Part shown: positions 1 through 58,400 of the stretch, one piece after another
How the letters are laid out: every line of letters starts with the position of its first letter
Position numbering within the stretch: position 1 is the first letter of the stretch
NCBI RefSeq assembly: GCF_003334405.1
Contig: NZ_QOWM01000004.1
DNA length: 64,000 nt
Origin: Escherichia coli
Lineage (GTDB): Bacteria; Pseudomonadota; Gammaproteobacteria; Enterobacterales; Enterobacteriaceae
Direction: 5' to 3' (one strand)
Program-made: the position numbers and the translations under genes
Notes under the pieces: model-generated
What the model saw: only the letters and a program-made list of their open reading frames with translations
Database searches by the model: none
What the model was told of the DNA's origin: nothing

Positions 1-264
1 TCTGATCTTCTTTTGCCCCCAGACAACCGGTCACAATAACCTTGCCGTTTTCATTCAACGCTTCACCAATGGCTTCCAGTGATTCTTGTACCGCGCTGTC
101 AATAAAGCCGCAGGTGTTGACGATCACCATGTCCGCATCGTCATAGCTCGGTACCACGTCATAACCTTCAGTGCGGAGTTCGGTGAGAATACGCTCTGAA
201 TCAACAAGGTTTTTCGGACAGCCAAGGGAAACAAAGCCGATTTTCGGCTGGGGAGTTACTTTGC
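1..264 (-). CDS. rimO: Ribosomal protein S12 methylthiotransferase RimO, N-terminal part (gene continues beyond window start)
   Basis: Reverse-strand ATG at 264 gives [31 protein letters not shown]..., open to position 1; recognised RimO/YliG N-terminus and rimO-bssR synteny. Not in ORF track because it is truncated. Confidence 0.8.
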
Positions 265-480
265 TCATAGCTTAAAAAATATTCAGTTACAGGAAAGGTC
301 AGGGCAGGGATTCTACAGAGTTCTGGATAAAATTTGTATCGCAATCTCATTCGCTGGCGGAGGCGAAGGAAATGTAAATTTTGTTAATTCGGCGTGAAGA
401 ATTGATCCTGGACAGCATTTTGCTCAAAAAATAGCCATACTATTTAATTGCAACAAGGCTGGGAAGAGGAGGATCGAAGT

Positions 481-864
481 ATGTTCGTTGACAGACAGCG
501 AATCGATCTGCTGAACCGGTTGATCGACGCACGCGTTGACCTCGCCGCATACGTGCAACTGAGGAAGGCAAAAGGATACATGTCCGTCAGCGAAAGCAAT
601 CATCTACGAGATAACTTTTTTAAACTGAATCGCGAACTGCACGATAAATCGCTGCGGTTGAATCTTCATCTGGATCAGGAAGAGTGGAGTGCTCTTCATC
701 ATGCTGAAGAAGCATTAGCGACAGCCGCAGTATGTTTGATGAGTGGGCACCATGATTGCCCGACTGTTATTACCGTCAACGCCGATAAGCTTGAAAATTG
801 TCTGATGAGCTTAACGCTGAGTATCCAGAGCCTGCAGAAGCACGCCATGCTTGAGAAGGCCTGA
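481..864 (+). CDS. bssR: Biofilm regulator BssR (127 aa)
   Basis: Track ORF 448..864; start moved to ATG 481 (MFVDRQRIDLLNRLI...) preceded by aggagg RBS; recognised protein. Confidence 0.85.
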   Translation: MFVDRQRIDLLNRLIDARVDLAAYVQLRKAKGYMSVSESNHLRDNFFKLNRELHDKSLRLNLHLDQEEWSALHHAEEALATAAVCLMSGHHDCPTVITVNADKLENCLMSLTLSIQSLQKHAMLEKA

Positions 865-869
865 AAACT

Positions 870-910
870 AAGGGGGAGAAAGCGTCTCCCCCTTCATGTT
901 TAAGTTTTTG
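870..910 (+). terminator. Putative rho-independent terminator after bssR
   Basis: GC hairpin agggggaga/tctccccct with loop, followed by T-rich tract (ttaagtttttg). Confidence 0.5.
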
Positions 911-974
911 TAAAAATGAATTTGTTATCTCCTCCACTGACTACGCTTTAAGCCAGAGTCAATCCGGAGGCGTT

Positions 975-2090
975 ATGCATCGACAATCCTTTTTCCTTGT
1001 GCCCCTTATTTGTCTTTCTTCCGCTCTCTGGGCGGCTCCTGCAACGGTAAATGTCGAAGTACTGCAAGACAAACTCGACCATCCCTGGGCACTGGCCTTT
1101 TTACCCGATAATCACGGTATGTTAATCACTCTGCGCGGCGGCGAGTTGCGTCACTGGCAAGCAGGAAAAGGATTATCTGCGCCGCTTTCCGGAGTTCCGG
1201 ACGTTTGGGCGCACGGGCAGGGCGGCCTGCTGGACGTGGTTTTAGCGCCTGATTTTGCTCAGTCTCGCCGCATCTGGTTAAGTTATTCCGAAGTTGGCGA
1301 TGATGGCAAAGCCGGAACTGCTGTGGGTTATGGCCGCTTAAGTGATGATCTCTCAAAAGTGACCGACTTCCGCACCGTCTTTCGCCAGATGCCAAAACTG
1401 TCTACCGGCAACCATTTTGGCGGGCGGCTGGTATTCGACGGTAAAGGTTATCTTTTTATTGCTCTGGGCGAAAACAATCAGCGCCCGACGGCGCAGGATC
1501 TGGATAAATTACAGGGCAAACTGGTGCGTCTGACCGACCAGGGCGAAATCCCGGATGATAATCCTTTTATAAAGGAATCCGGTGCGCGCGCCGAGATCTG
1601 GTCTTATGGCATTCGTAATCCGCAAGGAATGGCGATGAATCCGTGGAGTAATGCACTGTGGCTGAATGAACATGGCCCGCGCGGTGGTGATGAAATTAAT
1701 ATCCCGCAAAAAGGCAAAAACTACGGCTGGCCGCTGGCAACCTGGGGAATCAACTATTCAGGCTTTAAGATACCGGAAGCGAAAGGGGAGATCGTCGCCG
1801 GGACCGAGCAACCTGTTTTTTACTGGAAAGATTCGCCCGCTGTGAGCGGCATGGCCTTCTATAACAGCGATAAATTCCCCCAGTGGCAGCAAAAATTATT
1901 TATTGGCGCGCTGAAAGATAAAGATGTCATTGTGATGAGCGTCAACGGCGACAAAGTGACAGAAGATGGCCGTATTTTAACGGACAGAGGGCAGCGAATT
2001 CGTGATGTTCGCACTGGACCCGACGGTTATTTATACGTTCTCACCGACGAGTCCAGTGGGGAATTACTTAAAGTTAGCCCACGCAATTAG
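975..2090 (+). CDS. yliI: Soluble aldose sugar dehydrogenase YliI (371 aa, signal peptide)
   Basis: Track ORF; N-terminal signal peptide; recognised protein and synteny. Confidence 0.9.
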
Positions 2091-2713
2091 CTAACGGGAA
2101 TCATCACCACTTTGCGCACTGCGGGGCGTTCAGTGAGTTGCTGATACCAGCGTTGCAGATTTGGACGCGGTGTCCAGGTCAGGCCAACGTTAAACAAATT
2201 GTAGATGAACGGTGCGATAGCGATATCGCCCACACCAAACTCGTCGCCAGAGAACCATTTTACTTTTGCCAGTTCCGCATCGAGCAGGGCAAACAGGGCG
2301 TCGCACTCTTTGCAACTGGCATCAATGGCGGCCTGATCGCGCTCTTCCGGTGGTGTTCTGACTAATCCCATCAGGATCCCGCGATGAGCATTACTGAGCG
2401 TCTGGTTTGCCCAGTCCATCCATTTTTCCGCTTCCGCACGACGTGCCGGTGAGTCGATCCACAGGCGTTTTTGCCCGTACTGTGCCGCCAGATAGCGGAC
2501 AATGGCGTTTGATTCCCAAAGAATGAGATCACTTTCGTCGTCACGCAACAACGGCACCAGCCCGTTAGGGTTCATCGCCAGAAAATCAGCATCGTGATTT
2601 ATCCCAAACTCACGGCCCGCGAGAATTTGCTCATAAGGTAGTTCCAGTTCTTCGAGCGTCAGCAATACTTTTTTTACGTTAGTTGAATTATTCCGACCCC
2701 ACAGCGTAATCAT
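2087..2713 (-). CDS. gstB: Glutathione S-transferase GstB (208 aa)
   Basis: Track ORF 2087..2719 trimmed to second Met ([15 protein letters not shown]...); converges on yliI with a 4-nt stop overlap. Confidence 0.88.
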
Positions 2714-2959
2714 ACTCACCCCTTTTCCGACAGGCAGCCACAGGCTGAACAGGACTCCGATGGTGAAGTAAAGTTAACTTTTAAGCAACAGCTGGCAAAA
2801 AAATGACACCAGAAGCAGCGAAGCGGCAGGATATTGCATAAACTTTAAAAACTTTACCAACTTACGGTTTCTTTAAGTTTGTGTGTGCGTTATTAATCAC
2901 CAAACTTATCATACGGCGATATAACGTATTTTTTTTGAATGGATACTCGGGTGGCATTT

Positions 2960-4162
2960 ATGACGCAATACTCCTCTCTCCTTCGTGGTCTTGCAGCGGG
3001 TTCTGCATTTTTATTCCTTTTTGCCCCAACGGCATTCGCGGCGGAACAAACCGTTGAAGCGCCGAGCGTGGATGCGCGTGCATGGATTTTAATGGATTAC
3101 GCCAGCGGTAAAGTGCTGGCAGAAGGCAATGCGGATGAGAAACTGGATCCCGCGAGCCTGACTAAAATCATGACCAGCTATGTGGTTGGGCAGGCGCTTA
3201 AGGCCGATAAGATTAAACTCACCGATATGGTGACGGTCGGTAAAGATGCCTGGGCGACGGGAAATCCGGCACTGCGTGGTTCATCGGTAATGTTCCTCAA
3301 ACCGGGCGATCAGGTTTCGGTGGCAGACTTGAACAAAGGTGTGATTATCCAGTCCGGTAATGACGCCTGTATTGCGCTGGCTGATTACGTTGCCGGGAGC
3401 CAGGAGTCATTTATTGGTCTGATGAATGGTTATGCCAAAAAACTGGGTCTGACCAACACTACCTTCCAGACGGTGCACGGCCTGGATGCGCCGGGGCAGT
3501 TCAGCACCGCGCGCGATATGGCATTGCTGGGTAAAGCATTGATCCACGATGTGCCGGAAGAGTACGCCATTCATAAAGAGAAAGAGTTCACCTTCAACAA
3601 AATTCGTCAGCCTAACCGTAACCGTCTGCTGTGGAGCAGCAATCTGAATGTTGATGGCATGAAGACAGGAACCACGGCAGGCGCGGGATATAATCTGGTT
3701 GCTTCGGCTACCCAGGGCGATATGCGTTTAATCTCCGTAGTGTTGGGGGCGAAAACCGACCGTATCCGTTTTAATGAGTCTGAGAAATTATTGACCTGGG
3801 GTTTCCGCTTCTTTGAAACCGTGACGCCAATTAAACCTGATGCCACCTTTGTGACTCAGCGCGTCTGGTTTGGTGATAAGAGCGAAGTGAATCTCGGGGC
3901 AGGTGAAGCGGGCTCAGTGACCATACCGCGTGGGCAGCTGAAAAACCTGAAAGCGAGTTATACGTTAACGGAACCGCAGCTTACCGCACCGCTGAAAAAA
4001 GGTCAGGTTGTCGGGACCATTGATTTCCAGCTTAACGGTAAATCCATTGAGCAGCGTCCGCTGATCGTGATGGAAAATGTGGGAGAGGGCGGATTCTTTG
4101 GTCGGGTGTGGGATTTCGTGATGATGAAATTCCATCAGTGGTTCGGCAGCTGGTTCTCTTAA
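2960..4162 (+). CDS. dacC: D-alanyl-D-alanine carboxypeptidase DacC (PBP6, 400 aa)
   Basis: Track ORF 2939..4162 trimmed to [11 protein letters not shown]...; signal peptide plus SxxK active-site motif (ASLTKIMT). Confidence 0.9.
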
Positions 4163-4171
4163 TCTTCTGAT

Positions 4172-4200
4172 AACCGGATGGCGCGAAACGTCATCCGGTT
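4172..4200. terminator. Putative hairpin between convergent dacC and deoR
   Basis: Inverted repeat aaccggatg...catccggtt (9-bp arms) between two convergent stop codons; no strong T tract. Confidence 0.35.
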
Positions 4201-4208
4201 ATACGTCA

Positions 4209-4967
4209 TTAATACATCAACTTAATGCGCTGCGTCTGCGCGTACTTCACATACTCATCTTCCGGGCAACAATCGCTCACCACAATATCAAAGCGTTTCA
4301 GGTCACCCATGCGCGCCGGACGCACCTTGCCAAATTTACTGTGGTCGACAACCAGCACATGCTTTTGCGCCATCGACATGGCCCAGTGTTTTACCGGCAA
4401 CTCTTCAAGATTAAAACAGGTAGCGCCTTTACTGACATGCACGCCCGCCGCAGAATAAAAAGCGATATCCGGGCAAAAATTATTCAGCGTTTGCTGAAAA
4501 TCGATGGGTTTGAAAATGGCGTTGCTGGCGTGAAATTCACCACCGCAAAGAAACGCGCGGCAATGGGGTTTCTCTTTCAGCGCCAGAAAGGTATTTAGCG
4601 AATAACAAACGGCGGTAAAAGGGATTTCATTATCAATCGCTTCAATAATCCACGGCGTGGTGGTGCCACAGTCAAAAAAGAGGGTCTGATCGGGTTCTAC
4701 CAGCGTCGCAGCCAGTTTTGCCGCCCGGCGTTTTTCTTCCACCAGGCGGGATTTTTGATCGCTTAACAGGTAATGGCTGGCACTGCGCGGTTCCAGAACA
4801 ATATAGCCGCCGAGCAAAACGACGGGCGCACTGTGGTTGTTCAGATCGCGACGAATCGTCATCTCCGAAACCCCAAGCAGGGCGGCGGCGTCTTTAAGAT
4901 GTAACTTATCGCTGCGTTTTAATTCTTGCAGCAGCTGCCCGATACGCTCTTCGCGACGTGTTTCCAT
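4209..4967 (-). CDS. deoR: Deoxyribose operon repressor DeoR (252 aa)
   Basis: Track ORF; N-terminal HTH (LHLKDAAALLGVSEMTIRRDL); recognised protein. Confidence 0.9.
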   Translation of the reverse strand: METRREERIGQLLQELKRSDKLHLKDAAALLGVSEMTIRRDLNNHSAPVVLLGGYIVLEPRSASHYLLSDQKSRLVEEKRRAAKLAATLVEPDQTLFFDCGTTTPWIIEAIDNEIPFTAVCYSLNTFLALKEKPHCRAFLCGGEFHASNAIFKPIDFQQTLNNFCPDIAFYSAAGVHVSKGATCFNLEELPVKHWAMSMAQKHVLVVDHSKFGKVRPARMGDLKRFDIVVSDCCPEDEYVKYAQTQRIKLMY

Positions 4968-5024
4968 AATCCCTCTGAATAGTTATTGAAGCGAGCCGCT
5001 CAATACTACACTTTTTAGCAGAGA

Positions 5025-5621
5025 TCAGTCACGCACCCAGCCTTTGCGGATCGGTAATGCAAAACAGACGCGATACCACGATTGCAGACGTTGATAGAGT
5101 TTATGCCCCATCGCTTGCCAGATAATCTGGGCACTAAGGCAGCCAATCATACCTGCCAGCAATCCACCGAGCATATCCAGCGGCCAGTGGACGCCAAGAT
5201 AAACGCGCGACCAGGCAATGACGACGGCCAGCACCATTAAAAGTGAGCCGGACCACAGGCGATGCCAGCATAAAAATGCCAGTGCAAAGGTGAAAATCAC
5301 CGTACCGTGATCGCTTGGGAATGAGTCATCCGCCGCATGATGCAGGAAGTTATAGCCGATATTTTCGACAAAGGGTCGGTCGTGCGGAAAAAGATGTCCC
5401 ATCGTCCAGGACACAAACAGGCTGACCGCCAGCGCGATAGCGATTTTTATCACCAGTTGCCGTTGTGCTGTAAGCCCCCACAACCAAAGTACCACGGCCA
5501 GCAACGGCACCACGGTAATCAAATCTTTAGCAATAAAAATCGCCAACGAGATCATCCACGGAGCCGAGTCTGGCGTCGCGTTAATAAGAGAGAATAGAGA
5601 GAGATTCAAATTTTCCAGCAT
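5025..5621 (-). CDS. ybjG: Undecaprenyl-pyrophosphate phosphatase YbjG (PAP2 family, 198 aa)
   Basis: Track ORF 5025..5636 trimmed to MLENLNLSLFS...; hydrophobic membrane protein; synteny. Confidence 0.85.
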   Translation of the reverse strand: MLENLNLSLFSLINATPDSAPWMISLAIFIAKDLITVVPLLAVVLWLWGLTAQRQLVIKIAIALAVSLFVSWTMGHLFPHDRPFVENIGYNFLHHAADDSFPSDHGTVIFTFALAFLCWHRLWSGSLLMVLAVVIAWSRVYLGVHWPLDMLGGLLAGMIGCLSAQIIWQAMGHKLYQRLQSWYRVCFALPIRKGWVRD

Positions 5622-5905
5622 AACTTCCCGACGCAAAGTGATTAAAAGGGAGCCAATACAGGCAAGTCGTTGAGAATAAAGTGCAGGTTAAACTGGGTAA
5701 AGCGGCATCGTCTTATTTCCCTCAAGCGGCCTGTTTACGGTGGGTGATTGTAACGGGCATAGGTTAAATAAAACTTAAAGAAAGCGTAGCTATACTCGTA
5801 ATAATGTAAGAATGTGCTTAACCGTGGTTTCAGCTACAAAATTCGCTTTCTCGTTAGCTGCGCTTTTATTAAACTCTGCGCGATTATTATTGGCGAAGAA
5901 ATTGC

Positions 5906-7138
5906 ATGCAAAATAAATTAGCTTCCGGTGCCAGGCTTGGACGTCAGGCGTTACTTTTCCCTCTCTGTCTGGTGCTTTACGAATTTTCAACCTATATCGG
6001 CAACGATATGATTCAACCCGGTATGTTGGCCGTGGTGGAACAATATCAGGCGGGCATTGATTGGGTTCCTACTTCGATGACCGCGTATCTGGCGGGCGGG
6101 ATGTTTTTACAATGGCTGCTGGGGCCGCTGTCGGATCGTATTGGTCGCCGTCCGGTGATGCTGGCGGGAGTGGTGTGGTTTATCGTCACCTGTCTGGCAA
6201 TATTGCTGGCGCAAAACATTGAACAATTCACCCTGTTGCGCTTCTTGCAGGGCATAAGCCTCTGTTTCATTGGCGCTGTGGGATACGCCGCAATTCAGGA
6301 ATCCTTCGAAGAGGCGGTTTGTATCAAGATCACCGCGCTGATGGCGAACGTGGCGCTGATTGCTCCGCTACTTGGTCCGCTGGTGGGCGCGGCGTGGATC
6401 CATGTGCTGCCCTGGGAGGGGATGTTTGTTTTGTTTGCCGCATTGGCAGCGATCTCCTTTTTCGGTCTGCAACGAGCCATGCCTGAAACCGCCACGCGTA
6501 TAGGCGAGAAACTGTCACTGAAAGAACTCGGTCGTGACTATAAGCTGGTGCTGAAGAACGGCCGCTTTGTGGCGGGGGCGCTGGCGCTGGGATTCGTTAG
6601 TCTGCCGTTGCTGGCGTGGATCGCCCAGTCGCCGATTATCATCATTACCGGCGAGCAGTTGAGCAGCTATGAATATGGCTTGCTGCAAGTGCCTATTTTC
6701 GGGGCGTTAATTGCGGGTAACTTGCTGTTAGCGCGTCTGACCTCGCGCCGCACCGTACGTTCGCTGATTATTATGGGCGGCTGGCCGATTATGATTGGTC
6801 TATTGGTCGCTGCTGCGGCAACGGTTATCTCATCGCACGCGTATTTATGGATGACTGCCGGGTTAAGTATTTATGCTTTCGGTATTGGTCTGGCGAATGC
6901 GGGACTGGTGCGATTAACCCTGTTTGCCAGCGATATGAGTAAAGGTACGGTTTCTGCCGCGATGGGAATGCTGCAAATGCTGATCTTTACCGTTGGTATT
7001 GAAATCAGCAAACATGCCTGGCTGAACGGGGGCAACGGACTGTTTAATCTCTTCAACCTTGTCAACGGAATTTTGTGGCTGTCGCTGATGGTTATCTTTT
7101 TAAAAGATAAACAGATGGGAAATTCTCACGAAGGGTAA
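5906..7138 (+). CDS. mdfA: Multidrug efflux MFS transporter MdfA/Cmr (410 aa)
   Basis: Track ORF; 12-TM-type hydrophobic sequence; recognised protein. Confidence 0.92.
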
Positions 7139-7172
7139 AAAAATGCCTGACTGCTTTGTGCGATCAGGCATT
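7137..7172. terminator. Bidirectional hairpin terminator between mdfA and ybjH
   Basis: A-run, then 9-bp arms aatgcctga...tcaggcatt; reads as hairpin plus T-run on the minus strand (ybjH side). Confidence 0.5.
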
Positions 7173-7178
7173 CTCGAA

Positions 7179-7463
7179 TTAATGGTGATGGTCGTCAATC
7201 TGGTGTTCGATAACCATCCCTTCACCTACGCTGGCAAGATGGCGAACATAAGGATGCGGGCGGTAAGCCGGAGCTGGCGCAGGAGCCACATAGACGGTTT
7301 GCGGCACAGTCGCGACGCTGACCGCTTGTGGAACGCTGACTGAATCAGGAACCACAACCACTTTGTATCCACTCGGCACATCGACGGTGACACTTTGCGC
7401 CATCGCCACACCAGTAAAGCCCATTAAAAGCGCGCCCAACAGTAGACAATTTTTCATAATCAT
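7179..7463 (-). CDS. ybjH: Small secreted protein YbjH (94 aa)
   Basis: Track ORF with signal peptide (MIMKNCLLLGALLMGFTGVAMA); synteny. Confidence 0.8.
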   Translation of the reverse strand: MIMKNCLLLGALLMGFTGVAMAQSVTVDVPSGYKVVVVPDSVSVPQAVSVATVPQTVYVAPAPAPAYRPHPYVRHLASVGEGMVIEHQIDDHHH

Positions 7464-7548
7464 TTCGCCTGAAATAATGCAGCGGGTTAATTTCCGCGAA
7501 TTATGCAGCCTTCATTCAGGCATTGTGTTGCCGGGCGTGCTGCCGGTT

Positions 7549-8364
7549 TTATTGGTCAAATGGCGCTTCGTGTTTAAGAACTTTATCGATCACATCCAGT
7601 ACGCCTTCACGGTTATTGGAGCCTGCGCGGTATTTTGCCGCTGCGACGACCGCGCTACCGGCATTTTCCATTGCAAAACTAAAGCCTGCCTGACGCAGCA
7701 TCTCAATATCGTTACCGCCATCGCCAAAGACCACCACTTCGCTGTCGTCTATTCCCCATAATTTCTGCAGTTGGCGAAGGCCATTGGCTTTATGTACGCC
7801 GGGGATAATCAGATCGATGCTGCCGTTGCCGGTGTGGACCGACACCATAATATCGCCGATGGCCTCATGTAATGCTTTTTGTACTTGTGGAATCAGTTCA
7901 TCGGAAAGATTCAGGCCAAACTTAAAGAAGATATCCTCTAAGTTGTCAAAGTTATCGACGTATTCCAGACGGTGATAATACATTTCCGCCACCGTTTTCA
8001 TGGCATCGTCATATTTTTTGAGTGTATAGGCACTATTTTTTCCGCAGGCAATAATTTCCACTTCCGGGCGCGTCAGCAAATGTTCCACGACAGTAGCAAA
8101 CGCATCCTTCGATAGCTCGCCATTAAAAACATCTTTGCCTTCGCTCACTACCCAGCCGCCGTTTTCAGCCACAAAGGCAATTTCATTAGCAATTTCAGGG
8201 AAGAAAGAGATCAACTGATAATATTGATTCCCGCTGGCGACTACAAAGCGAATTCCTTGTGCTTTCATTTGCTGATACTGAGCCATAAACCGCTCACGGT
8301 TATAGGTTTTTTGATCGCTTAAGAAAGTACCATCCATGTCTACCGCAATTAATTTAATGCTCAT
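7549..8364 (-). CDS. ybjI: HAD-family FMN/sugar phosphatase YbjI (Cof-like, about 271 aa)
   Basis: Track ORF 7549..8367; HAD motif I (AVDMDGT); start is either of two adjacent Met codons, the second overlapping the ybjJ stop (TGATG). Confidence 0.85.
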   Translation of the reverse strand: MSIKLIAVDMDGTFLSDQKTYNRERFMAQYQQMKAQGIRFVVASGNQYYQLISFFPEIANEIAFVAENGGWVVSEGKDVFNGELSKDAFATVVEHLLTRPEVEIIACGKNSAYTLKKYDDAMKTVAEMYYHRLEYVDNFDNLEDIFFKFGLNLSDELIPQVQKALHEAIGDIMVSVHTGNGSIDLIIPGVHKANGLRQLQKLWGIDDSEVVVFGDGGNDIEMLRQAGFSFAMENAGSAVVAAAKYRAGSNNREGVLDVIDKVLKHEAPFDQ

Positions 8365-9572
8365 CAACTATTCTCCATCGCCGTCTGCGTTTTGGTATCG
8401 GGTTTGGCGACGGCTTTCGCGACAATAGCCGCGAGAATAACCAGCGCCAGTACAACCAGCATTGCACTACGTAATCCATAATGTTCGCCGAGATAGCCCA
8501 GCAGCGGCGGCCCGACGAGGAAAGCCAGATAACCGGTCGTTGCTACCACACTGACGCGGGTTGGTGCATCGGGGCCGGTATCGCTGGCGGCAGAAATGGT
8601 CAGCGGGAAGCCCAGCGAGGCACCCAGTCCCCAGAGTACAACAGACACCCCAGCGACCCAGGCGCTATCGACAAAAATAATCAGCCCAATACCCAACGCC
8701 CCCATTAGTGCACTGGCCCGAACCACGGCAACGCGACTGTAACGGTCGATGAACCAACCGCCGGTGAAGCGTCCAACGGTCATCCCCAGGGTAAAACCGG
8801 CATAAATCAGCGAGCCGGAAGTAGGGCTAAAACCGTGACCGTCAACCATTAATAAGGGTAACCAGTCGTTGGCAGAACCTTCGGCAAAGGCCATCGCCAG
8901 CACCACAACACCTATCAGCAGCAACTGGATATCGCGATAAAAAGGTACGCCTTTTTCGCCATGCTGGGTGCCATCGGCAGCATTTTTGCCCGTACCGTCA
9001 GGGATTGCCTGAATGGCGATATAAATAGGTGCGATACCTACCAGCGCCGCCAATAAAATGTGCACCGTTGCCGGAACGCCAAAGGCCGTCAGTGCCATCC
9101 CGACACCTGCGCCTGCCAGCGTGCCCAGGCTATAAAAACCGTGCATCATCGGCAAAACCGTCTTATTCATTTCTCGCTCAACGGCAGCACCTTCAACGTT
9201 TATCGCCACTTCCGCAGAACCAAAACTTGCCCCAAAGACGCCGAGACCAACGGCAAAGAGCAGGGGCGATGTCAGCCAGAGTGCCAGACTTAATATCATC
9301 ATCCCGATCAATGCGCAGGACATCGTGACCAGGATGACATTACGTGTCCCAAAGCGTTTCACTAACCACGCCGAGCAGAGAATACCGCTCATCGAACCGA
9401 TCGACAGACCAAAGAGAACACCGCCCATTTCAGCGATCGAGACAGAGAGAATATCGCGGATAGCAGGCGTACGGGTTGCCCAGGACGCCATTAACAGGCC
9501 TGGCAAAAAGAAGAACATAAACAGCGCCCAGGTTCGGCGTTTCAATGCATTACGTGAAGAATTTACGGTCAT
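8364..9572 (-). CDS. ybjJ: MFS transporter YbjJ (402 aa)
   Basis: Track ORF; polytopic hydrophobic protein; synteny. Confidence 0.88.
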
Positions 9573-9655
9573 AGATCACGTCAAAATAAGAAGAGGGAAG
9601 ACAACATTAGCAAGGTTGTGTACATTTGTACACAATTGCAGAGAGAGGAAATGAC

Positions 9656-10192
9656 ATGCGTCGCGCTAACGATCCGCAACGGCGAGAAAAAATTATCCAG
9701 GCCACGCTGGAGGCGGTGAAACTTTACGGAATACATGCTGTTACGCACCGCAAAATTGCTACCCTTGCCGGGGTACCGTTGGGATCGATGACCTACTATT
9801 TTTCAGGAATTGATGAGTTGTTACTGGAGGCGTTCAGCAGTTTTACTGAGATCATGTCCCGGCAATATCAGGCATTTTTTAGCGATGTTAGTGATGCTCC
9901 GGGCGCATGCCAGGCTATCACCGATATGATCTACAGCTCACAGGTTGCAACGCCGGATAACATGGAGCTGATGTACCAGCTCTACGCGCTGGCTAGCCGA
10001 AAACCGCTATTAAAAACGGTAATGCAAAACTGGATGCAGCGCAGTCAGCAAACGCTCGAACAATGGTTTGAACCCGGAACCGCCCGCGCGCTTGATGCGT
10101 TTATTGAGGGGATGACGCTGCATTTTGTCACCGACCGTAAGCCGCTATCGCGCGAGGAGATTTTGAGGATGGTTGAGAGGGTTGCAGGGTAG
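9656..10192 (+). CDS. rcdA: TetR-family regulator RcdA/YbjK (178 aa)
   Basis: Track ORF 9626..10192 trimmed to [15 protein letters not shown]...; TetR-type N-terminal HTH. Confidence 0.85.
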
Positions 10193-10211
10193 TAGATAAG
10201 TTTTAGATAAC

Positions 10212-10290
10212 AAAAAACCCATCAACCTTGAACCGAAATGGCGGGGTTGATGGGCTCCACAAAATGGGGACATCAAAGAAAAGCAGTGGC
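10212..10290 (-). ncRNA. rybB: Small RNA RybB (sigma-E dependent, Hfq-binding), about 79 nt
   Basis: Minus strand reads gccactgcttttctttgatgtccccattttgtggagcccatcaaccccgccatttcggttcaaggttgatgggtttttt, the RybB sequence as I recall it, ending in a terminator hairpin plus U-run; lies in the rcdA-ybjL gap where rybB maps. Confidence 0.85.
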
Positions 10291-10296
10291 ACTAAT

Positions 10297-10324
10297 TAAG
10301 ACTGATGCCCTGCGGAAAAGTTCT
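10297..10324 (-). promoter_or_regulatory. Putative sigma-E promoter of rybB
   Basis: Minus strand upstream of the RybB 5' end reads GAACTT, 16-nt spacer, TCTTA, matching the sigma-E -35/-10 pattern. Confidence 0.55.
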
Positions 10325-45496: not shown

Positions 45497-47773
45497 ATGC
45501 TCAATCAAGAACTGGAACTCAGTTTAAATATGGCTTTCGCCAGAGCGCGCGAGCACCGTCATGAGTTTATGACCGTCGAGCACTTGTTACTGGCGCTGCT
45601 CAGTAACCCATCTGCCCGGGAGGCGCTGGAAGCGTGTTCTGTGGATTTGGTTGCGCTCCGTCAGGAACTGGAAGCCTTTATTGAACAAACCACACCCGTT
45701 CTGCCTGCCAGTGAAGAGGAGCGCGACACACAGCCGACGCTGAGTTTTCAGCGTGTACTGCAACGTGCGGTCTTCCATGTCCAGTCCTCCGGTCGCAATG
45801 AGGTTACCGGTGCAAACGTTCTGGTCGCTATCTTTAGCGAACAGGAGTCGCAGGCGGCATATCTGTTGCGTAAACATGAAGTCAGCCGTCTCGATGTGGT
45901 GAACTTTATCTCTCATGGCACGCGTAAAGACGAGCCGACACAGTCTTCTGATCCTGGCAGCCAGCCAAACAGCGAAGAACAAGCTGGTGGGGAGGAACGT
46001 ATGGAGAATTTCACGACGAACCTGAATCAGCTTGCGCGCGTGGGCGGAATCGACCCACTGATTGGTCGTGAGAAGGAGCTGGAGCGTGCTATTCAGGTTC
46101 TCTGCCGTCGCCGTAAAAACAACCCGCTGCTGGTGGGGGAATCTGGTGTCGGTAAAACCGCGATTGCGGAAGGTCTTGCCTGGCGAATTGTTCAGGGCGA
46201 TGTGCCGGAAGTGATGGCTGACTGTACGATTTACTCTCTCGATATCGGTTCTCTGTTAGCGGGCACAAAATATCGCGGCGACTTTGAAAAACGTTTTAAA
46301 GCGTTGCTCAAGCAGCTGGAGCAGGACACTAACAGCATCCTGTTTATTGATGAGATCCACACCATTATCGGTGCGGGTGCAGCGTCTGGTGGTCAGGTCG
46401 ATGCGGCTAACCTAATCAAACCGTTGCTCTCCAGCGGTAAAATTCGTGTAATTGGTTCGACAACCTATCAGGAGTTCAGCAACATTTTCGAGAAAGACCG
46501 TGCTCTGGCGCGTCGCTTCCAGAAAATTGATATTACTGAACCGTCGATCGAAGAAACTGTTCAAATCATCAATGGCCTGAAACCGAAGTATGAAGCGCAC
46601 CACGACGTGCGTTATACCGCAAAAGCGGTGCGTGCGGCGGTAGAGCTGGCGGTGAAATACATTAACGATCGTCATCTGCCGGATAAAGCCATTGATGTTA
46701 TCGACGAAGCGGGCGCTCGCGCACGCCTGATGCCGGTAAGCAAACGCAAGAAAACCGTTAATGTGGCGGATATTGAGTCCGTGGTGGCCCGTATTGCACG
46801 CATTCCAGAGAAGAGTGTTTCTCAGAGTGATCGTGATACCCTGAAAAACCTCGGCGATCGCTTGAAAATGCTGGTCTTCGGTCAGGATAAAGCCATTGAG
46901 GCGCTGACTGAAGCCATTAAGATGGCGCGTGCAGGTTTAGGTCACGAACATAAACCGGTTGGTTCGTTCCTGTTTGCCGGCCCTACCGGGGTCGGGAAAA
47001 CAGAGGTGACGGTACAGCTTTCGAAAGCTTTGGGCATTGAGCTTCTGCGCTTTGATATGTCCGAGTATATGGAACGCCATACCGTCAGCCGTCTTATTGG
47101 TGCGCCTCCGGGATACGTTGGTTTTGATCAGGGCGGTTTGCTGACTGATGCGGTCATCAAGCATCCACATGCGGTGCTGCTGCTGGACGAAATCGAGAAA
47201 GCGCACCCGGACGTGTTCAATATTCTGTTGCAGGTGATGGATAACGGTACGCTGACCGATAACAACGGACGCAAAGCAGACTTCCGTAACGTGGTGCTGG
47301 TGATGACCACCAACGCCGGGGTACGGGAAACTGAGCGCAAATCCATTGGTCTTATCCACCAGGATAACAGCACCGATGCGATGGAAGAGATCAAGAAGAT
47401 CTTTACACCGGAATTCCGTAACCGTCTCGACAACATTATCTGGTTTGATCATCTGTCAACCGACGTGATCCATCAGGTGGTGGATAAATTCATCGTCGAG
47501 TTGCAGGTTCAGCTGGATCAGAAAGGTGTTTCTCTGGAAGTGAGCCAGGAAGCGCGTAACTGGCTGGCCGAGAAAGGTTACGACCGGGCAATGGGCGCTC
47601 GTCCGATGGCGCGTGTCATCCAGGACAACCTGAAAAAACCGCTCGCCAACGAACTGCTGTTTGGTTCGCTGGTGGACGGCGGTCAGGTCACCGTCGCGCT
47701 GGATAAAGAGAAAAATGAGCTGACTTACGGATTCCAGAGTGCACAAAAGCACAAGGCGGAAGCAGCGCATTAA
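45497..47773 (+). CDS. clpA: ATP-dependent Clp protease ATPase ClpA (758 aa)
   Basis: Track ORF 45482..47773 trimmed to [20 protein letters not shown]...; two AAA modules ([16 protein letters not shown]). Confidence 0.93.
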
Positions 47774-47798
47774 TCTGATTGTTAGGTAGGTTGGTCAA

Positions 47799-47835
47799 GT
47801 CCGTAATCTCGAAAGAGGTTACGGACTTTTTGTTT
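47799..47835 (+). terminator. Rho-independent terminator of clpSA
   Basis: 12-bp stem gtccgtaatctc / gaggttacggac with gaaa loop, followed by tttttgttt. Confidence 0.75.
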
Positions 47836-47985
47836 ATGGGGTGGAGGAGGTTCAGACCCTTTTTTTAATGATGATGGTAAGTTGTTGATAATTAGTGCTG
47901 CGGGAAGGTAAGGATAAAAAAGGGTGCTGCAGGAGAATGGGATGGTTTTGCTTTATTAACAACGGGCTAAACGTGTAGTATTTGA

Positions 47986-48073
47986 GTTCACTGCCGTACA
48001 GGCAGCTTAGAAATTCACAGGTAACATACTCCACCCGCCCACCATGTTCACTGCCGTACAGACAGATAAAATG
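47986..48073 (+). CRISPR. Orphan type I-F CRISPR remnant: 2 repeats (28 bp) and 1 spacer (32 bp), no cas genes
   Basis: Repeat 1 gttcactgccgtacaggcagcttagaaa (47986-48013); spacer ttcacaggtaacatactccacccgcccaccat (48014-48045); degenerate repeat 2 gttcactgccgtacagacagataaaatg (48046-48073). The 28/32 geometry and repeat sequence match the Yersinia-subtype (I-F) consensus as I recall it. Confidence 0.8.
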
Positions 48074-48116
48074 CGAAAAAAAAGCTCGCACTTTCGTACG
48101 AGCTCTTCTTTAAATA

Positions 48117-48204
48117 TGGCGGTGAGGGGGGGATTCGAACCCCCGATACGTTGCCGTATACACACTTTCCAGGCGTGCTCCTTCAGCCACTCGGACACCT
48201 CACC
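48117..48204 (-). tRNA. serW: tRNA-Ser (anticodon GGA), 88 nt
   Basis: Minus strand reads GGTGAGGTGTCCGAGTGGCTGAAGGAGCACGCCTGGAAAGTG...GGTTCGAATCCCCCCCTCACCGCCA: class II tRNA with long variable arm, anticodon loop CT-GGA-AA, T-loop GGTTCGAATCC, 3' CCA encoded. Confidence 0.92.
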
Positions 48205-55456: not shown

Positions 55457-58400
55457 TTGAGCCAGGAATACACTGAAGACAAAGAAGTCACATTGACAAA
55501 GTTAAGTAGCGGCCGCCGCCTTCTGGAGGCGTTGCTGATCCTTATTGTCCTGTTTGCCGTCTGGTTGATGGCTGCCTTACTAAGCTTTAACCCTTCGGAC
55601 CCCAGCTGGTCGCAAACGGCCTGGCATGAACCTATCCATAATTTAGGTGGGATGCCCGGTGCGTGGTTGGCAGATACGCTGTTCTTTATTTTTGGCGTGA
55701 TGGCTTACACCATTCCCGTCATTATTGTCGGCGGTTGTTGGTTTGCCTGGCGTCATCAGTCCAGCGACGAATACATTGATTATTTTGCCGTTTCGCTACG
55801 CATCATTGGCGTTTTGGCGCTCATCCTTACCTCCTGTGGTCTGGCGGCAATCAACGCTGACGATATCTGGTATTTTGCCTCCGGTGGCGTCATTGGCAGC
55901 TTACTAAGCACTACGCTACAACCACTGCTACACAGTAGCGGGGGAACTATTGCGCTGCTCTGCGTTTGGGCAGCGGGCCTGACGTTGTTCACCGGTTGGT
56001 CATGGGTGACCATTGCTGAAAAACTCGGCGGCTGGATTTTAAACATTCTCACCTTCGCCAGTAATCGTACCCGTCGCGATGATACCTGGGTCGATGAAGA
56101 TGAGTATGAAGACGACGAAGAGTATGAAGATGAAAATCACGGCAAACAGCATGAATCACGCCGTGCCCGTATTCTTCGCGGCGCGCTAGCGCGTCGTAAA
56201 CGGTTGGCGGAAAAATTCATTAATCCGATGGGGCGGCAAACAGACGCTGCGTTGTTCTCCGGTAAGCGGATGGATGATGACGAAGAGATTACCTACACTG
56301 CACGCGGTGTGGCTGCCGACCCGGACGACGTCCTATTTTCGGGCAATCGTGCAACGCAGCCAGAATATGACGAATACGATCCATTATTAAACGGTGCGCC
56401 AATTACCGAACCTGTCGCTGTAGCAGCTGCTGCTACCACGGCGACACAAAGCTGGGCTGCGCCGGTTGAACCTGTGACTCAGACGCCGCCTGTTGCCTCT
56501 GTTGATGTTCCACCTGCGCAACCTACAGTAGCCTGGCAGCCTGTACCGGGTCCACAAACGGGAGAGCCGGTTATTGCTCCTGCACCGGAAGGTTACCCAC
56601 AGCAGTCACAATATGCGCAGCCTGCAGTGCAATATAATGAGCCGCTGCAACAACCAGTACAGCCGCAGCAGCCGTATTATGCACCTGCAGCTGAACAACC
56701 TGCGCAACAGCCGTATTATGCCCCTGCGCCAGAACAACCGGTGGCAGGTAACGCCTGGCAAGCCGAAGAGCAGCAATCCACTTTTGCTCCACAGTCTACA
56801 TACCAGACTGAGCAAACTTATCAGCAGCCAGCCGCTCAGGAGCCGTTGTACCAACAGCCGCAACCCGTTGAACAGCAGCCTGTTGTGGAGCCTGAACCCG
56901 TTGTAGAAGAGACAAAACCCGCGCGTCCGCCGCTTTACTACTTTGAAGAAGTTGAAGAGAAGCGAGCCCGTGAACGTGAACAACTTGCGGCCTGGTATCA
57001 ACCGATTCCAGAACCGGTTAAAGAACCAGAACCGATCAAATCTTCGCTGAAAGCACCTTCTGTTGCAGCAGTACCTCCAGTAGAAGCCGCTGCCGCTGTT
57101 TCCCCGCTGGCATCTGGCGTGAAAAAAGCGACACTGGCGACGGGGGCTGCCGCAACCGTTGCCGCGCCAGTCTTCAGTCTGGCAAATAGCGGTGGACCGC
57201 GTCCTCAGGTCAAAGAGGGGATTGGTCCGCAGTTGCCACGACCGAAACGTATCCGCGTGCCAACTCGTCGTGAACTGGCGTCTTACGGTATTAAGCTGCC
57301 CTCACAGCGTGCGGCGGAAGAAAAAGCCCGTGAAGCCCAGCGCAATCAGTACGATTCTGGCGATCAGTACAACGATGATGAAATCGATGCGATGCAGCAG
57401 GATGAACTGGCACGTCAGTTCGCCCAGACACAGCAGCAACGCTATGGCGAACAGTATCAACATGATGTGCCCGTAAACGCAGAAGATGCAGATGCTGCGG
57501 CAGAGGCTGAACTGGCTCGTCAGTTTGCGCAAACTCAACAACAACGTTATTCCGGCGAACAACCGGCTGGGGCGAATCCGTTCTCGCTGGATGATTTTGA
57601 ATTTTCGCCAATGAAAGCGTTGCTGGATGATGGTCCACACGAACCGTTGTTTACGCCAATTGTTGAACCTGTACAGCAGCCGCAACAACCGGTTGCACCG
57701 CAGCAGCAATATCAGCAGCCGCAACAACCAGTTCCGCCGCAGCCGCAGTATCAGCAGCCACAACAGCCGGTTGCGCCGCAGCCACAATATCAGCAGCCGC
57801 AACAACCGGTTGCGCCACAGCAGCAATATCAGCAGCCGCAACAACCGGTTGCGCCGCAGCAGCAGTATCAGCAGCCACAACAGCCAGTTGCGCCACAACC
57901 GCAGGATACCCTGCTTCATCCGCTGTTGATGCGTAATGGCGACAGCCGTCCGTTGCATAAACCGACGACGCCGCTGCCTTCTCTGGATTTGCTGACACCG
58001 CCGCCGAGCGAAGTGGAGCCGGTAGATACCTTTGCGCTTGAACAAATGGCTCGCCTGGTGGAAGCGCGTCTGGCTGATTTCCGTATTAAAGCCGATGTCG
58101 TCAATTACTCTCCGGGGCCGGTTATCACTCGCTTTGAATTGAACCTGGCACCGGGCGTAAAAGCGGCGCGCATTTCTAACTTGTCACGGGACCTTGCCCG
58201 TTCACTTTCGACGGTGGCGGTGCGTGTCGTTGAAGTTATTCCTGGCAAACCCTATGTAGGTCTGGAGTTACCGAATAAAAAACGACAAACCGTTTATCTG
58301 CGCGAAGTTTTGGATAACGCCAAATTCCGCGATAATCCGTCGCCATTAACCGTGGTGCTGGGTAAAGATATCGCCGGTGAGCCGGTGGTTGCCGATCTGG

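What the first reader, a model, noticed from the sequence alone, without database searches (positions are those of the whole stretch)
47836..48116. Orphan type I-F CRISPR remnant (two repeats, one 32-bp spacer) between clpA and serW, with no cas genes
Seen: a 28-bp repeat gttcactgccgtacaggcagcttagaaa (47986-48013), a 32-bp spacer ttcacaggtaacatactccacccgcccaccat (48014-48045), and a second repeat gttcactgccgtacagacagataaaatg (48046-48073) whose first 16 nt are identical and whose 3' half has diverged. The 150 bp upstream are AT-rich and non-coding (leader-like). No cas gene exists anywhere in the window. Established: 28-bp repeats with 32-bp spacers and this repeat sequence are characteristic of I-F (Yersinia-subtype) CRISPR; in E. 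coli the I-F cas operon, when present, lies in the clpA-infA interval, and cas-less strains have been reported to retain a minimal array whose spacer matches I-F cas genes (proposed anti-cas immunity). Inference: this is such a cas-less strain. The ORF track covers the array only with three spurious ORFs.
Basis: partly seen in the sequence, partly recalled or inferred. Interest (0 to 1): 0.65.

Follow-up and report, generated by a model that had tools for sequence, protein, structure and literature searches.

The report
Known E. coli orphan anti-cas CRISPR array
This is the well-described leftover type I-F CRISPR mini-array found between clpA and serW in most E. coli, K-12 included; its single spacer targets the missing system's own cas1 gene, so the finding is real and correctly read but already known.

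Summary
A canonical 28-nt I-F repeat lies at 47986-48013 (Rfam CRISPR-DR4, 50.1 bits against a gathering score of 35). A 32-nt spacer follows at 48014-48045, then a degenerate terminal repeat at 48046-48073. The array sits between the clpA terminator and the serW terminator. There are no cas genes in the 64-kb window.

- In I-F-positive strains the operon sits in exactly this interval (LF82, ATCC 43896).
- The spacer hits cas1f, antisense, next to the I-F PAM (5'-CC). It matches 30/32 in LF82 and 31/32 in the E69 allele, where the only mismatch is at position 6, which I take from memory to be unpaired.
- In 13 other E. coli loci the orphan arrays held 8 distinct spacers. All map to cas1f, cas3f or csy3, and all have a CC PAM.
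- cas1f is present in only 241 of 5,426 complete genomes. It almost never co-occurs with this spacer.

This is the CRISPR4.1-2 (CRISPR3) "anti-cas" array of Diez-Villasenor 2010, Touchon and Rocha 2010 and Almendros 2016. Reviews report that it is expressed and blocks uptake of I-F cas plasmids. The array here is identical to the one in K-12 and B strains.

One local detail: a G17A change weakens the terminal-repeat hairpin (-8.6 to -1.4 kcal/mol). That hairpin is needed to mature the only crRNA, so this lineage's copy may be decaying.

The parts
47797..47828 (+). clpA intrinsic terminator, the left boundary of the locus
   Evidence: 14-bp stem followed by a T-run. The clpA stop codon is at 47773.
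47829..47985 (+). CRISPR4.1-type leader, AT-rich
   Evidence: About 94% identical over 212 nt to the leader of the CRISPR4.1 array in LF82. The 33 nt next to the first repeat are 100% identical. GC is 41%. No strong sigma-70 consensus was found by the scan. Transcription is claimed only from the literature.
47986..48013 (+). Type I-F repeat 1, canonical: 5-bp hairpin plus an 8-nt 5' handle CUUAGAAA
   Evidence: Rfam RF01317 CRISPR-DR4 at 50.1 bits, E=2.7e-10. Hairpin MFE is -8.6 kcal/mol.
48014..48045 (+). 32-nt anti-cas1f spacer. The crRNA would be complementary to the coding strand of cas1f, codons 33-43.
   Evidence: 30/32 to LF82 cas1f with a 5'-CC PAM and mismatches at positions 4 and 6. 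29/32 to ATCC 43896 cas1f. 31/32 to E69 cas1f, mismatch at position 6 only. No plasmid or phage target.
48046..48073 (+). Terminal, degenerate repeat. Nt 1-20 would form the 3' handle and Cas6f hairpin of the only crRNA. It carries G17A (at 48062), and nt 21-28 have diverged to ATAAAATG.
   Evidence: 20 bits. G17A lowers the hairpin MFE from -8.6 to -1.4 kcal/mol. The A variant is present in at least 2,937 of 5,426 genomes. The G variant is seen in O157:H7 and B2-type loci L008, L010-L012 and L014.
48066..48077 (.). 12-nt junction (ATAAAATGCGAA) with no counterpart in cas-positive strains. This is the inferred deletion or recombination joint.
   Evidence: Local alignments show that homology to LF82 stops after nt 20 of the repeat and resumes at the serW terminator. 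The same junction is present in all 13 sampled cas-F-less loci.
48076..48111 (-). serW intrinsic terminator, abutting the array. It may also end + strand transcripts.
   Evidence: 16-pair stem followed by T8 on the minus strand. 45/48 identical to the cas6f-serW spacer region of LF82.
48117..48204 (-). serW tRNA-Ser(GGA), the right boundary of the locus
   Evidence: ARAGORN and Rfam tRNA at 53.8 bits.

Best explanation
This is the orphan type I-F array of E. coli. It is called CRISPR4.1-2 in the CRISPR-III locus by the Mojica group and CRISPR3 by Touchon and Rocha. It consists of the CRISPR4.1 leader, one full repeat, one spacer and a terminal repeat, and it is all that is left where the I-F cas operon sits in about 4% of strains.

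The spacer was acquired by a genuine I-F adaptation machinery from the cas1f gene itself. The evidence for that is its 32-nt length, its 5'-CC PAM and its inverted orientation relative to the gene.

Proposed mechanism. Step 1 is asserted only through the literature. Steps 2 and 3 are inferred from the sequence anatomy, and the outcome as a whole is reported in the literature.
1. The array is transcribed constitutively from the leader.
2. The transcript is inert while no I-F proteins are present. If an I-F cas operon enters the cell, its own Cas6f and Csy proteins load the resident crRNA.
3. The resulting complex recognises the incoming cas1f and recruits Cas2-3. The incoming DNA is degraded, or primed acquisition of further anti-cas spacers is triggered. 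Either way the I-F system cannot establish.

In the copy in this window, the crRNA has a seed mismatch (position 4) to both cas1f alleles that circulate in E. coli, so priming is more likely than direct interference against those. It pairs fully, apart from position 6, with the E69-type allele.
For: Identity and anatomy.

Same locus as the operon in LF82 and ATCC 43896. Leader homology and a shared junction.

Spacer against cas1f with a CC PAM.

Generality: the arrays in 13 other cas-F-less loci held 8 distinct protospacers. All lie in cas1f (2), cas3f (5) or csy3 (1), on both strands, with 0-3 mismatches to the closest allele. All 8 are preceded by CC on the ATCC 43896 operon, where the background CC frequency is 0.0555, giving P of about 9e-11. 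Three of them match 32/32.

Exclusivity: cas1f is in 241 of 5,426 genomes. The spacer search gave 2,583 places in 2,579 genomes, so at most 4 genomes can hold both the array spacer and the cas1f target. The arrays of LF82 and ATCC 43896 contain none of the anti-cas spacers.

No other target.

Literature: PMC2886076 proposes the anti-CRISPR role. PMC8616872 and PMC5972030 report that native orphan arrays are constitutively expressed, interfere with plasmids carrying the complete I-F cas set, and prime new acquisitions (Almendros et al. 2016, Nat Microbiol 1:16081, which I could not read directly). The GG/CC PAM of E. coli I-F is in PMC3506596.
Against: - The window's spacer mismatches LF82 cas1f at seed position 4 and ATCC 43896 cas1f at positions 4 and 10. 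This should weaken direct interference against the alleles actually present in E. coli.
- The terminal repeat has G17A, which collapses the predicted Cas6f hairpin of the only crRNA.
- No convincing sigma-70 promoter was found on the + strand by the simple scan.
- Expression and interference were not and cannot be tested here. I do not know whether the K-12-type array specifically was among those tested in 2016.
- I-F operons were found on no E. coli plasmid (0 places on plasmids), so how often the threat arises is unclear.
Confidence: 0.8

Rival explanations
1. The array is a relic without a current function. An ancestor with a complete I-F system acquired self-targeting spacers against its own cas genes, and autoimmunity selected for deletion of the operon (Diez-Villasenor 2010). 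The mini-array is a scar that persists by inertia and is decaying in this lineage.
For: - A single shared junction and terminal repeat in all sampled cas-F-less loci fits one ancient deletion.
- There is clear differential spacer loss: L003 has sp1-sp0, the window has only sp0, and L007 and L009 have only sp1, all with the same G17A terminal repeat.
- Decay marks are present in the window's copy. These are the spacer T6A change relative to the O157/E69 form, the seed mismatch to E. coli cas1f alleles, and the hairpin-breaking G17A fixed in at least 2,937 genomes. A 4-nt deletion inside this spacer is seen in L004 and L006.
Against: - Every sampled array keeps at least one anti-cas spacer and nothing else.
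- Some spacers are still 32/32 to extant alleles.
- Different spacers best match different operon alleles. sp5 matches E69 at 0 mismatches against 1-2 for the others. sp7 is closest to LF82. sp1, sp6 and sp8 match ATCC 43896 exactly. This hints at several encounters rather than one event.
- The literature reports experimental interference and priming by native orphan arrays (PMC8616872).
- The origin as a scar and a present anti-cas function are not mutually exclusive.
Confidence: 0.17
2. The crRNA-like transcript has a cas-independent role, for example regulating a chromosomal gene by antisense pairing or affecting clpA or serW expression.
For: Nothing specific. The array lies tightly between two terminators. 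A 14-nt imperfect inverted repeat links the spacer (48023-48036) with 47839-47852 in the leader.
Against: - In E. coli genomes the spacer's only strong matches are the array itself and cas1f.
- Other lineages carry entirely different spacers at the same place, all anti-cas. A conserved host target would not allow that.
- The 14-nt inverted repeat is 86% complementary and within chance expectation.
Confidence: 0.02
3. The pattern is a chance repeat or an annotation artefact and not a CRISPR array.
For: There are only two repeats. PGAP leaves the array unannotated in almost all genomes.
Against: - Rfam E=2.7e-10.
- Exact 28+32 periodicity.
- A leader homologous to a bona fide array.
- Arrays of 2-3 spacers at the same site in other strains.
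- PAM-flanked protospacers.
Confidence: 0.01

Closest known systems
E. coli CRISPR-III locus orphan array CRISPR4.1-2 (Diez-Villasenor 2010; Almendros 2014, 2016), the same as CRISPR3 'anti-CRISPR' of Touchon and Rocha 2010
   Same: Everything matches: the clpA-serW-infA location, the type-4 (I-F) repeat, a single 32-nt spacer matching cas1 of the I-F system, the conserved degenerate terminal repeat, and the absence of cas-F genes. The array in the window is base-for-base the one in K-12 MG1655, W3110, DH10B and BLR(DE3).
   Different: Nothing at the level of kind. The local particulars are the G17A terminal-repeat variant and the T6A spacer variant.
Complete type I-F CRISPR-Cas of E. coli LF82, ED1a, UTI89 and ATCC 43896
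   Same: Same repeat, same leader (about 94% identical), same chromosomal site, and same PAM (CC on the spacer-sense strand, written GG in PMC3506596).
   Different: Those strains have the six cas genes, two long arrays (9-22 spacers, aimed mostly at plasmids according to PMC2886076) and no anti-cas spacers. The window has one spacer and no cas genes.
Self-targeting spacers and CRISPR autoimmunity leading to cas loss (general phenomenon)
   Same: The spacer targets the genome's own (former) CRISPR-Cas locus, and the cas genes are gone.
   Different: Here the target is the cas operon itself. The array is retained species-wide and is reported to act as a barrier against re-acquisition.

Membership tests
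Type I-F CRISPR array (Rfam CRISPR-DR4 / CRISPR-4 repeat type) | 28-nt repeat matching the I-F consensus with a 5-bp stem and 5-nt loop hairpin | tested here: met
   Repeat 1 scores 50.1 bits against a gathering score of 35, matches 27 of 28 consensus positions, and has a hairpin MFE of -8.6 kcal/mol.
Type I-F CRISPR array (Rfam CRISPR-DR4 / CRISPR-4 repeat type) | Regular repeat-spacer periodicity (28 + 32 = 60 nt) with at least 2 repeats | tested here: met
   Repeat starts at 47986 and 48046, spacing 60. Sister strains have 3-4 repeats at the same spacing.
Type I-F CRISPR array (Rfam CRISPR-DR4 / CRISPR-4 repeat type) | AT-rich leader upstream, homologous to the leader of a cas-associated array | tested here: met
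   About 94% identity to the LF82 CRISPR4.1 leader over 212 nt. GC is 41%.
Type I-F CRISPR array (Rfam CRISPR-DR4 / CRISPR-4 repeat type) | Spacers derived from protospacers flanked by the I-F PAM (CC 5' on the spacer-sense strand) | tested here: met
   CC precedes the cas1f protospacer in LF82, ATCC 43896 and E69. All 8 distinct orphan-array protospacers have CC.
Orphan anti-cas CRISPR4.1-2 array of E. coli | Located between clpA and serW/infA | tested here: met
Orphan anti-cas CRISPR4.1-2 array of E. coli | No I-F cas genes in the genome | tested here: inconclusive
   None are in the 64-kb window. Genome-wide absence cannot be tested for this window. However, cas1f occurs in only 241 of 5,426 genomes, always at this locus, and at most 4 genomes could carry both the spacer and cas1f.
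Orphan anti-cas CRISPR4.1-2 array of E. coli | Spacer(s) match I-F cas genes of related strains | tested here: met
   cas1f at 30/32 (LF82), 29/32 (ATCC 43896) and 31/32 (E69).
Orphan anti-cas CRISPR4.1-2 array of E. coli | Conserved characteristic terminal repeat (...CAGATAAAATG) and junction to the serW terminator | tested here: met
   The same terminal repeat is in the 13 sampled cas-F-less loci (L013 carries two additional substitutions in nt 1-20). The window has the G17A variant.
Orphan anti-cas CRISPR4.1-2 array of E. coli | Constitutive transcription, processing by incoming Cas6f, and interference or priming against I-F cas DNA | not testable with these tools
   Reported in the literature for native orphan arrays (PMC8616872 and PMC5972030, citing Almendros 2016). 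Not shown here for this variant.
Orphan anti-cas CRISPR4.1-2 array of E. coli | Intact 3'-handle hairpin (nt 1-20 of the repeat downstream of the spacer) for Cas6f binding | tested here: not met
   G17A creates a C-A mismatch in the 5-bp stem. MFE is -1.4 kcal/mol against -8.6 for the G variant, no better than shuffles. This bears on function in this lineage, not on what the locus is.

The most novel reading that the evidence does not exclude
In the lineage represented by this window (K-12, B and more than half of all sequenced E. coli), the anti-cas module may be functionally dead or only able to prime.

- The sole crRNA needs the terminal repeat's hairpin for Cas6f binding and 3' maturation. 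That hairpin is disrupted by a fixed G17A change.
- The spacer also has a seed mismatch to both cas1f alleles present in E. coli.

If this is so, the species-wide persistence of the array in this clade would reflect inertia rather than selection. These strains would then be open to re-acquiring I-F systems.
Probability: 0.25. Interest if true: 0.3.

Novelty: already known. Interest (0 to 1): 0.15.

Why it matters
It is a textbook-grade curiosity rather than a discovery. A CRISPR array that outlived its cas genes is turned against them, which shows that some bacteria are better off keeping adaptive immunity out. The only points that may add to the literature are these. The terminal-repeat G17A hairpin defect is fixed in at least 54% of complete genomes. 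The ancestral form of the K-12 spacer matches perfectly a divergent cas1f allele (strain E69) rather than the alleles common in E. coli.

Tried and rejected
- Plasmid and phage targets for the spacer. The only hits were a 22/25 match in Vitreoscilla cas1f and a 17-nt chance hit in phage Lw1, so the spacer has no mobile-element target other than cas1f.
- Other Rfam families over the region (sX4, MicC, Thr_leader and others). All are far below their gathering scores and are driven by the tRNA and its terminator.
- Promoter scan. No + strand sigma-70 consensus was found in the leader, so transcription cannot be argued from sequence.
- Scan of species-representative genomes for the 26-nt spacer core. 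Only two loci were returned. One is an E. coli-identical MAG contig. The other is E. coli E69, and only 3.9 kb of that locus was held, so I could not map the other spacers on its cas3f or csy genes.
- Almendros 2016 could not be read directly, so its results are cited through two reviews.
- I considered that the spacer might be a deletion remnant of cas1f rather than an acquired spacer. I rejected this because it is inverted relative to the gene, is exactly 32 nt long, is bounded by repeats, and starts right after a CC PAM.
- Exact per-genome co-occurrence and spacer census across the 5,426 genomes could not be extracted. The search tool lists at most 60 rows, so I used counts and evenly spaced samples instead.

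Full report
**What is there**

- Repeat 1 (47986-48013) matches 27 of the 28 positions of the Rfam CRISPR-DR4 consensus. It scores 50.1 bits against a gathering score of 35 (E=2.7e-10).
- It occurs once in the window and never in 100 shuffles.
- A 32-nt spacer follows (48014-48045).
- A second repeat follows at 48046-48073. Its first 20 nt differ from repeat 1 at one position (G17A) and its last 8 nt are unrelated.
- The array is boxed in by the clpA terminator (47797-47828) and the serW terminator (48111-48076, minus strand).
- The ORFs that overlap the array are artefacts of six-frame ORF calling.

**No cas genes in the window**

Positions 10197-64000 are 99.98% identical and collinear with E. 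coli ML35. The annotation there runs ybjL ... macAB-cspD-clpS-clpA-serW-infA-aat-cydCD-trxB-lrp-ftsK-lolA-rarA-serS-dmsA. Positions 1-10300 match K-12 W3110 at 100% and hold yliI-dacC-mdfA-ybjJ and neighbouring genes. A tblastn search of the six LF82 Cas-F proteins against the window gives nothing better than E=0.05. The only cas1f-related hit is the spacer itself.

**Relation to the complete system**

In LF82 and ATCC 43896 the order is clpA, leader, CRISPR4.1 array, cas1f, cas3f, csy1, csy2, csy3, cas6f, serW, leader, CRISPR4.2 array, infA.
- The window's leader is about 94% identical to the LF82 CRISPR4.1 leader, and 100% identical in the 33 nt next to the first repeat.
- Homology to LF82 stops after nt 20 of the terminal repeat. 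It resumes, 45/48 identical, at the serW terminator.
- That leaves a 12-nt junction (48066-48077) with no counterpart in LF82.
- The cas-less state therefore looks like the cas-positive state minus about 8.6 kb, joined inside a repeat.
- The same junction and terminal repeat are present in all 13 other cas-F-less loci I fetched. This suggests one ancestral event.

**What the spacer targets**

Searching the 32-mer against 5,426 complete E. coli genomes gave hits in 2,579 of them.
- 1,433 genomes hold an identical copy. 888 have a best match in the 95-99% identity band, which includes the one-mismatch O157:H7 form and a few 26-nt partial matches.
- In I-F-positive strains the hit is cas1f at 30/32.
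- In LF82 the protospacer lies on the antisense strand of cas1f (codons 33-43), so the crRNA would pair with the coding strand.
- The protospacer is immediately preceded by CC. This is the E. coli I-F PAM, written as GG on the other strand in PMC3506596.
- Mismatches are at spacer positions 4 and 6 in LF82, plus position 10 in ATCC 43896.
- A scan of one genome per prokaryotic species for the spacer core found a third cas1f allele in E. coli E69, about 92% identical to the other two. It matches the O157-type spacer variant 32/32 and the window's spacer 31/32, again after CC.
- The single mismatch to E69 is at position 6. From general knowledge of type I complexes, every sixth crRNA base is flipped out and unpaired (not tested here).
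- The position-4 difference from LF82 corresponds to a synonymous AGC/AGT serine codon in cas1f. The window's A at position 6 would make a cysteine codon, so it is more likely drift in the spacer than a cas1f polymorphism (my inference).
- Plasmid and phage collections hold no target.

**Generality**

The 13 other cas-F-less loci carry arrays of 1-3 spacers. Together with the window they hold 10 spacer sequences that represent 8 distinct protospacers.
- Every one maps to the I-F operon: cas1f twice, cas3f five times and csy3 once. They fall on both strands.
- They have 0-3 mismatches to the better-matching allele, and three match ATCC 43896 at 32/32.
- All 8 are preceded by CC on the ATCC 43896 operon. 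The background CC frequency there is 0.0555, giving P of about 9e-11.
- The arrays of the two cas-positive strains contain none of these spacers.
- cas1f is present in 241 of 5,426 genomes, always chromosomal.
- The spacer search returned only 4 more places than genomes. So at most 4 genomes can hold both this spacer and its target.
- The window's spacer is leader-distal, and therefore the oldest, in every multi-spacer array that has it.
- Arrays sp1-sp0 (L003), sp0 alone (the window) and sp1 alone (L007, L009) all share the G17A terminal repeat. This shows differential spacer loss from a longer ancestor.

**How it most likely works**

The anatomy fits the published model.
1. The orphan array is transcribed.
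2. The transcript is inert until an I-F operon enters the cell.
3. The invader's own Cas6f, Csy complex and Cas2-3 are then guided by the resident crRNA against the invader's cas genes. This destroys the carrier DNA or primes the acquisition of more anti-cas spacers.

Touchon and Rocha proposed this in 2010 (PMC2886076), calling the array CRISPR3, an 'anti-CRISPR'. Diez-Villasenor et al. 2010 proposed the alternative that self-targeting drove cas loss. Two reviews from the Mojica group state that native orphan arrays are constitutively expressed, interfere with plasmids carrying a complete I-F cas set, and trigger primed adaptation (PMC8616872 and PMC5972030, citing Almendros et al. 2016, Nat Microbiol 1:16081). 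I could not read the 2016 paper itself. Almendros 2014 (PMC3903273) names the locus CRISPR-III and the array CRISPR4.1-2. [quoted passage not shown]

**What is particular to this copy**

The array is identical over 100 nt to that of K-12 MG1655, W3110, DH10B and BLR(DE3). From evenly spaced sampling, roughly a quarter of all complete genomes share it.

The mature I-F crRNA is the 8-nt 5' handle, the spacer, and nt 1-20 of the downstream repeat. The hairpin in those 20 nt is bound by Cas6f (established knowledge, Haurwitz 2010, cited from memory). For a one-spacer array, that hairpin comes from the terminal repeat.
- In the window, G17A puts a C-A mismatch in the 5-bp stem. The predicted stability falls from -8.6 to -1.4 kcal/mol, no better than shuffled sequence.
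- O157:H7 and B2-type loci keep the intact stem.
- The A variant is present in at least 2,937 of 5,426 genomes.

Together with the seed mismatch to the two E. coli cas1f alleles, this raises the possibility that the module is weakened in this clade. I rate that at about 25%. It cannot be settled without an experiment.

**Verdict**

The feature is already known and, according to the literature, has been tested experimentally. Interest is low. The finding serves mainly as a correct recognition of a small element that automated annotation skips: the PGAP features under the match are 'none'.

Noticed in passing
window 48062 (position 17 of the terminal repeat, 48046-48073): A G17A substitution breaks the 5-bp Cas6f hairpin of the terminal repeat (MFE -1.4 against -8.6 kcal/mol). 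The variant is fixed in at least 2,937 of 5,426 complete E. coli genomes, while O157:H7 and B2-type loci keep G.
   Followed up: partly
L017 924-955 (E. coli E69, CP089930): A third cas1f allele, about 92% identical to the LF82 and ATCC 43896 alleles, carries a perfect CC-flanked protospacer for the O157-type variant of this spacer. Different anti-cas spacers best match different operon alleles, which hints at several acquisition episodes.
   Followed up: partly
L005 about 643-820 and L014 about 643-820 (strains ECCNB20-2 and GPEC856): A 177-bp insertion lies between the orphan array and serW. It consists of a partial duplicate of the serW 3' end, an element that PGAP calls 'RtT sRNA', and a second copy of the serW terminator. 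It is absent from the window.
   Followed up: partly
L013 718-1116 (strain MS1050): PGAP annotates a 132-aa 'hypothetical protein' (WP_012602745.1) on the minus strand directly across a 3-spacer orphan array. It is almost certainly a spurious CDS. In nearly all genomes the 2-repeat array has no annotation at all.
   Followed up: no
L016 1-1338, then 1339 onward (MAG 'Proteobacteria bacterium' JADFJT010000085): The contig is 99.9% identical to window 46864-48201 and then diverges 3 nt inside the 5' end of serW into unrelated genes. This is either an assembly chimera or an island inserted at serW.
   Followed up: no
window 57674-57904: An internal tandem-like repeat within ftsK: 192 nt matching itself at a 39-nt offset with 87.5% identity. 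This is probably the repetitive linker region of FtsK.
   Followed up: no
window about 10197 (left of ybjL): Strain ML35 carries a P2-like prophage (tail, tape-measure and ogr genes) ending here. The window has the uninterrupted K-12-type yliI-dacC-mdfA-ybjJ region instead, so this is a prophage integration site that is empty in the window.
   Followed up: no
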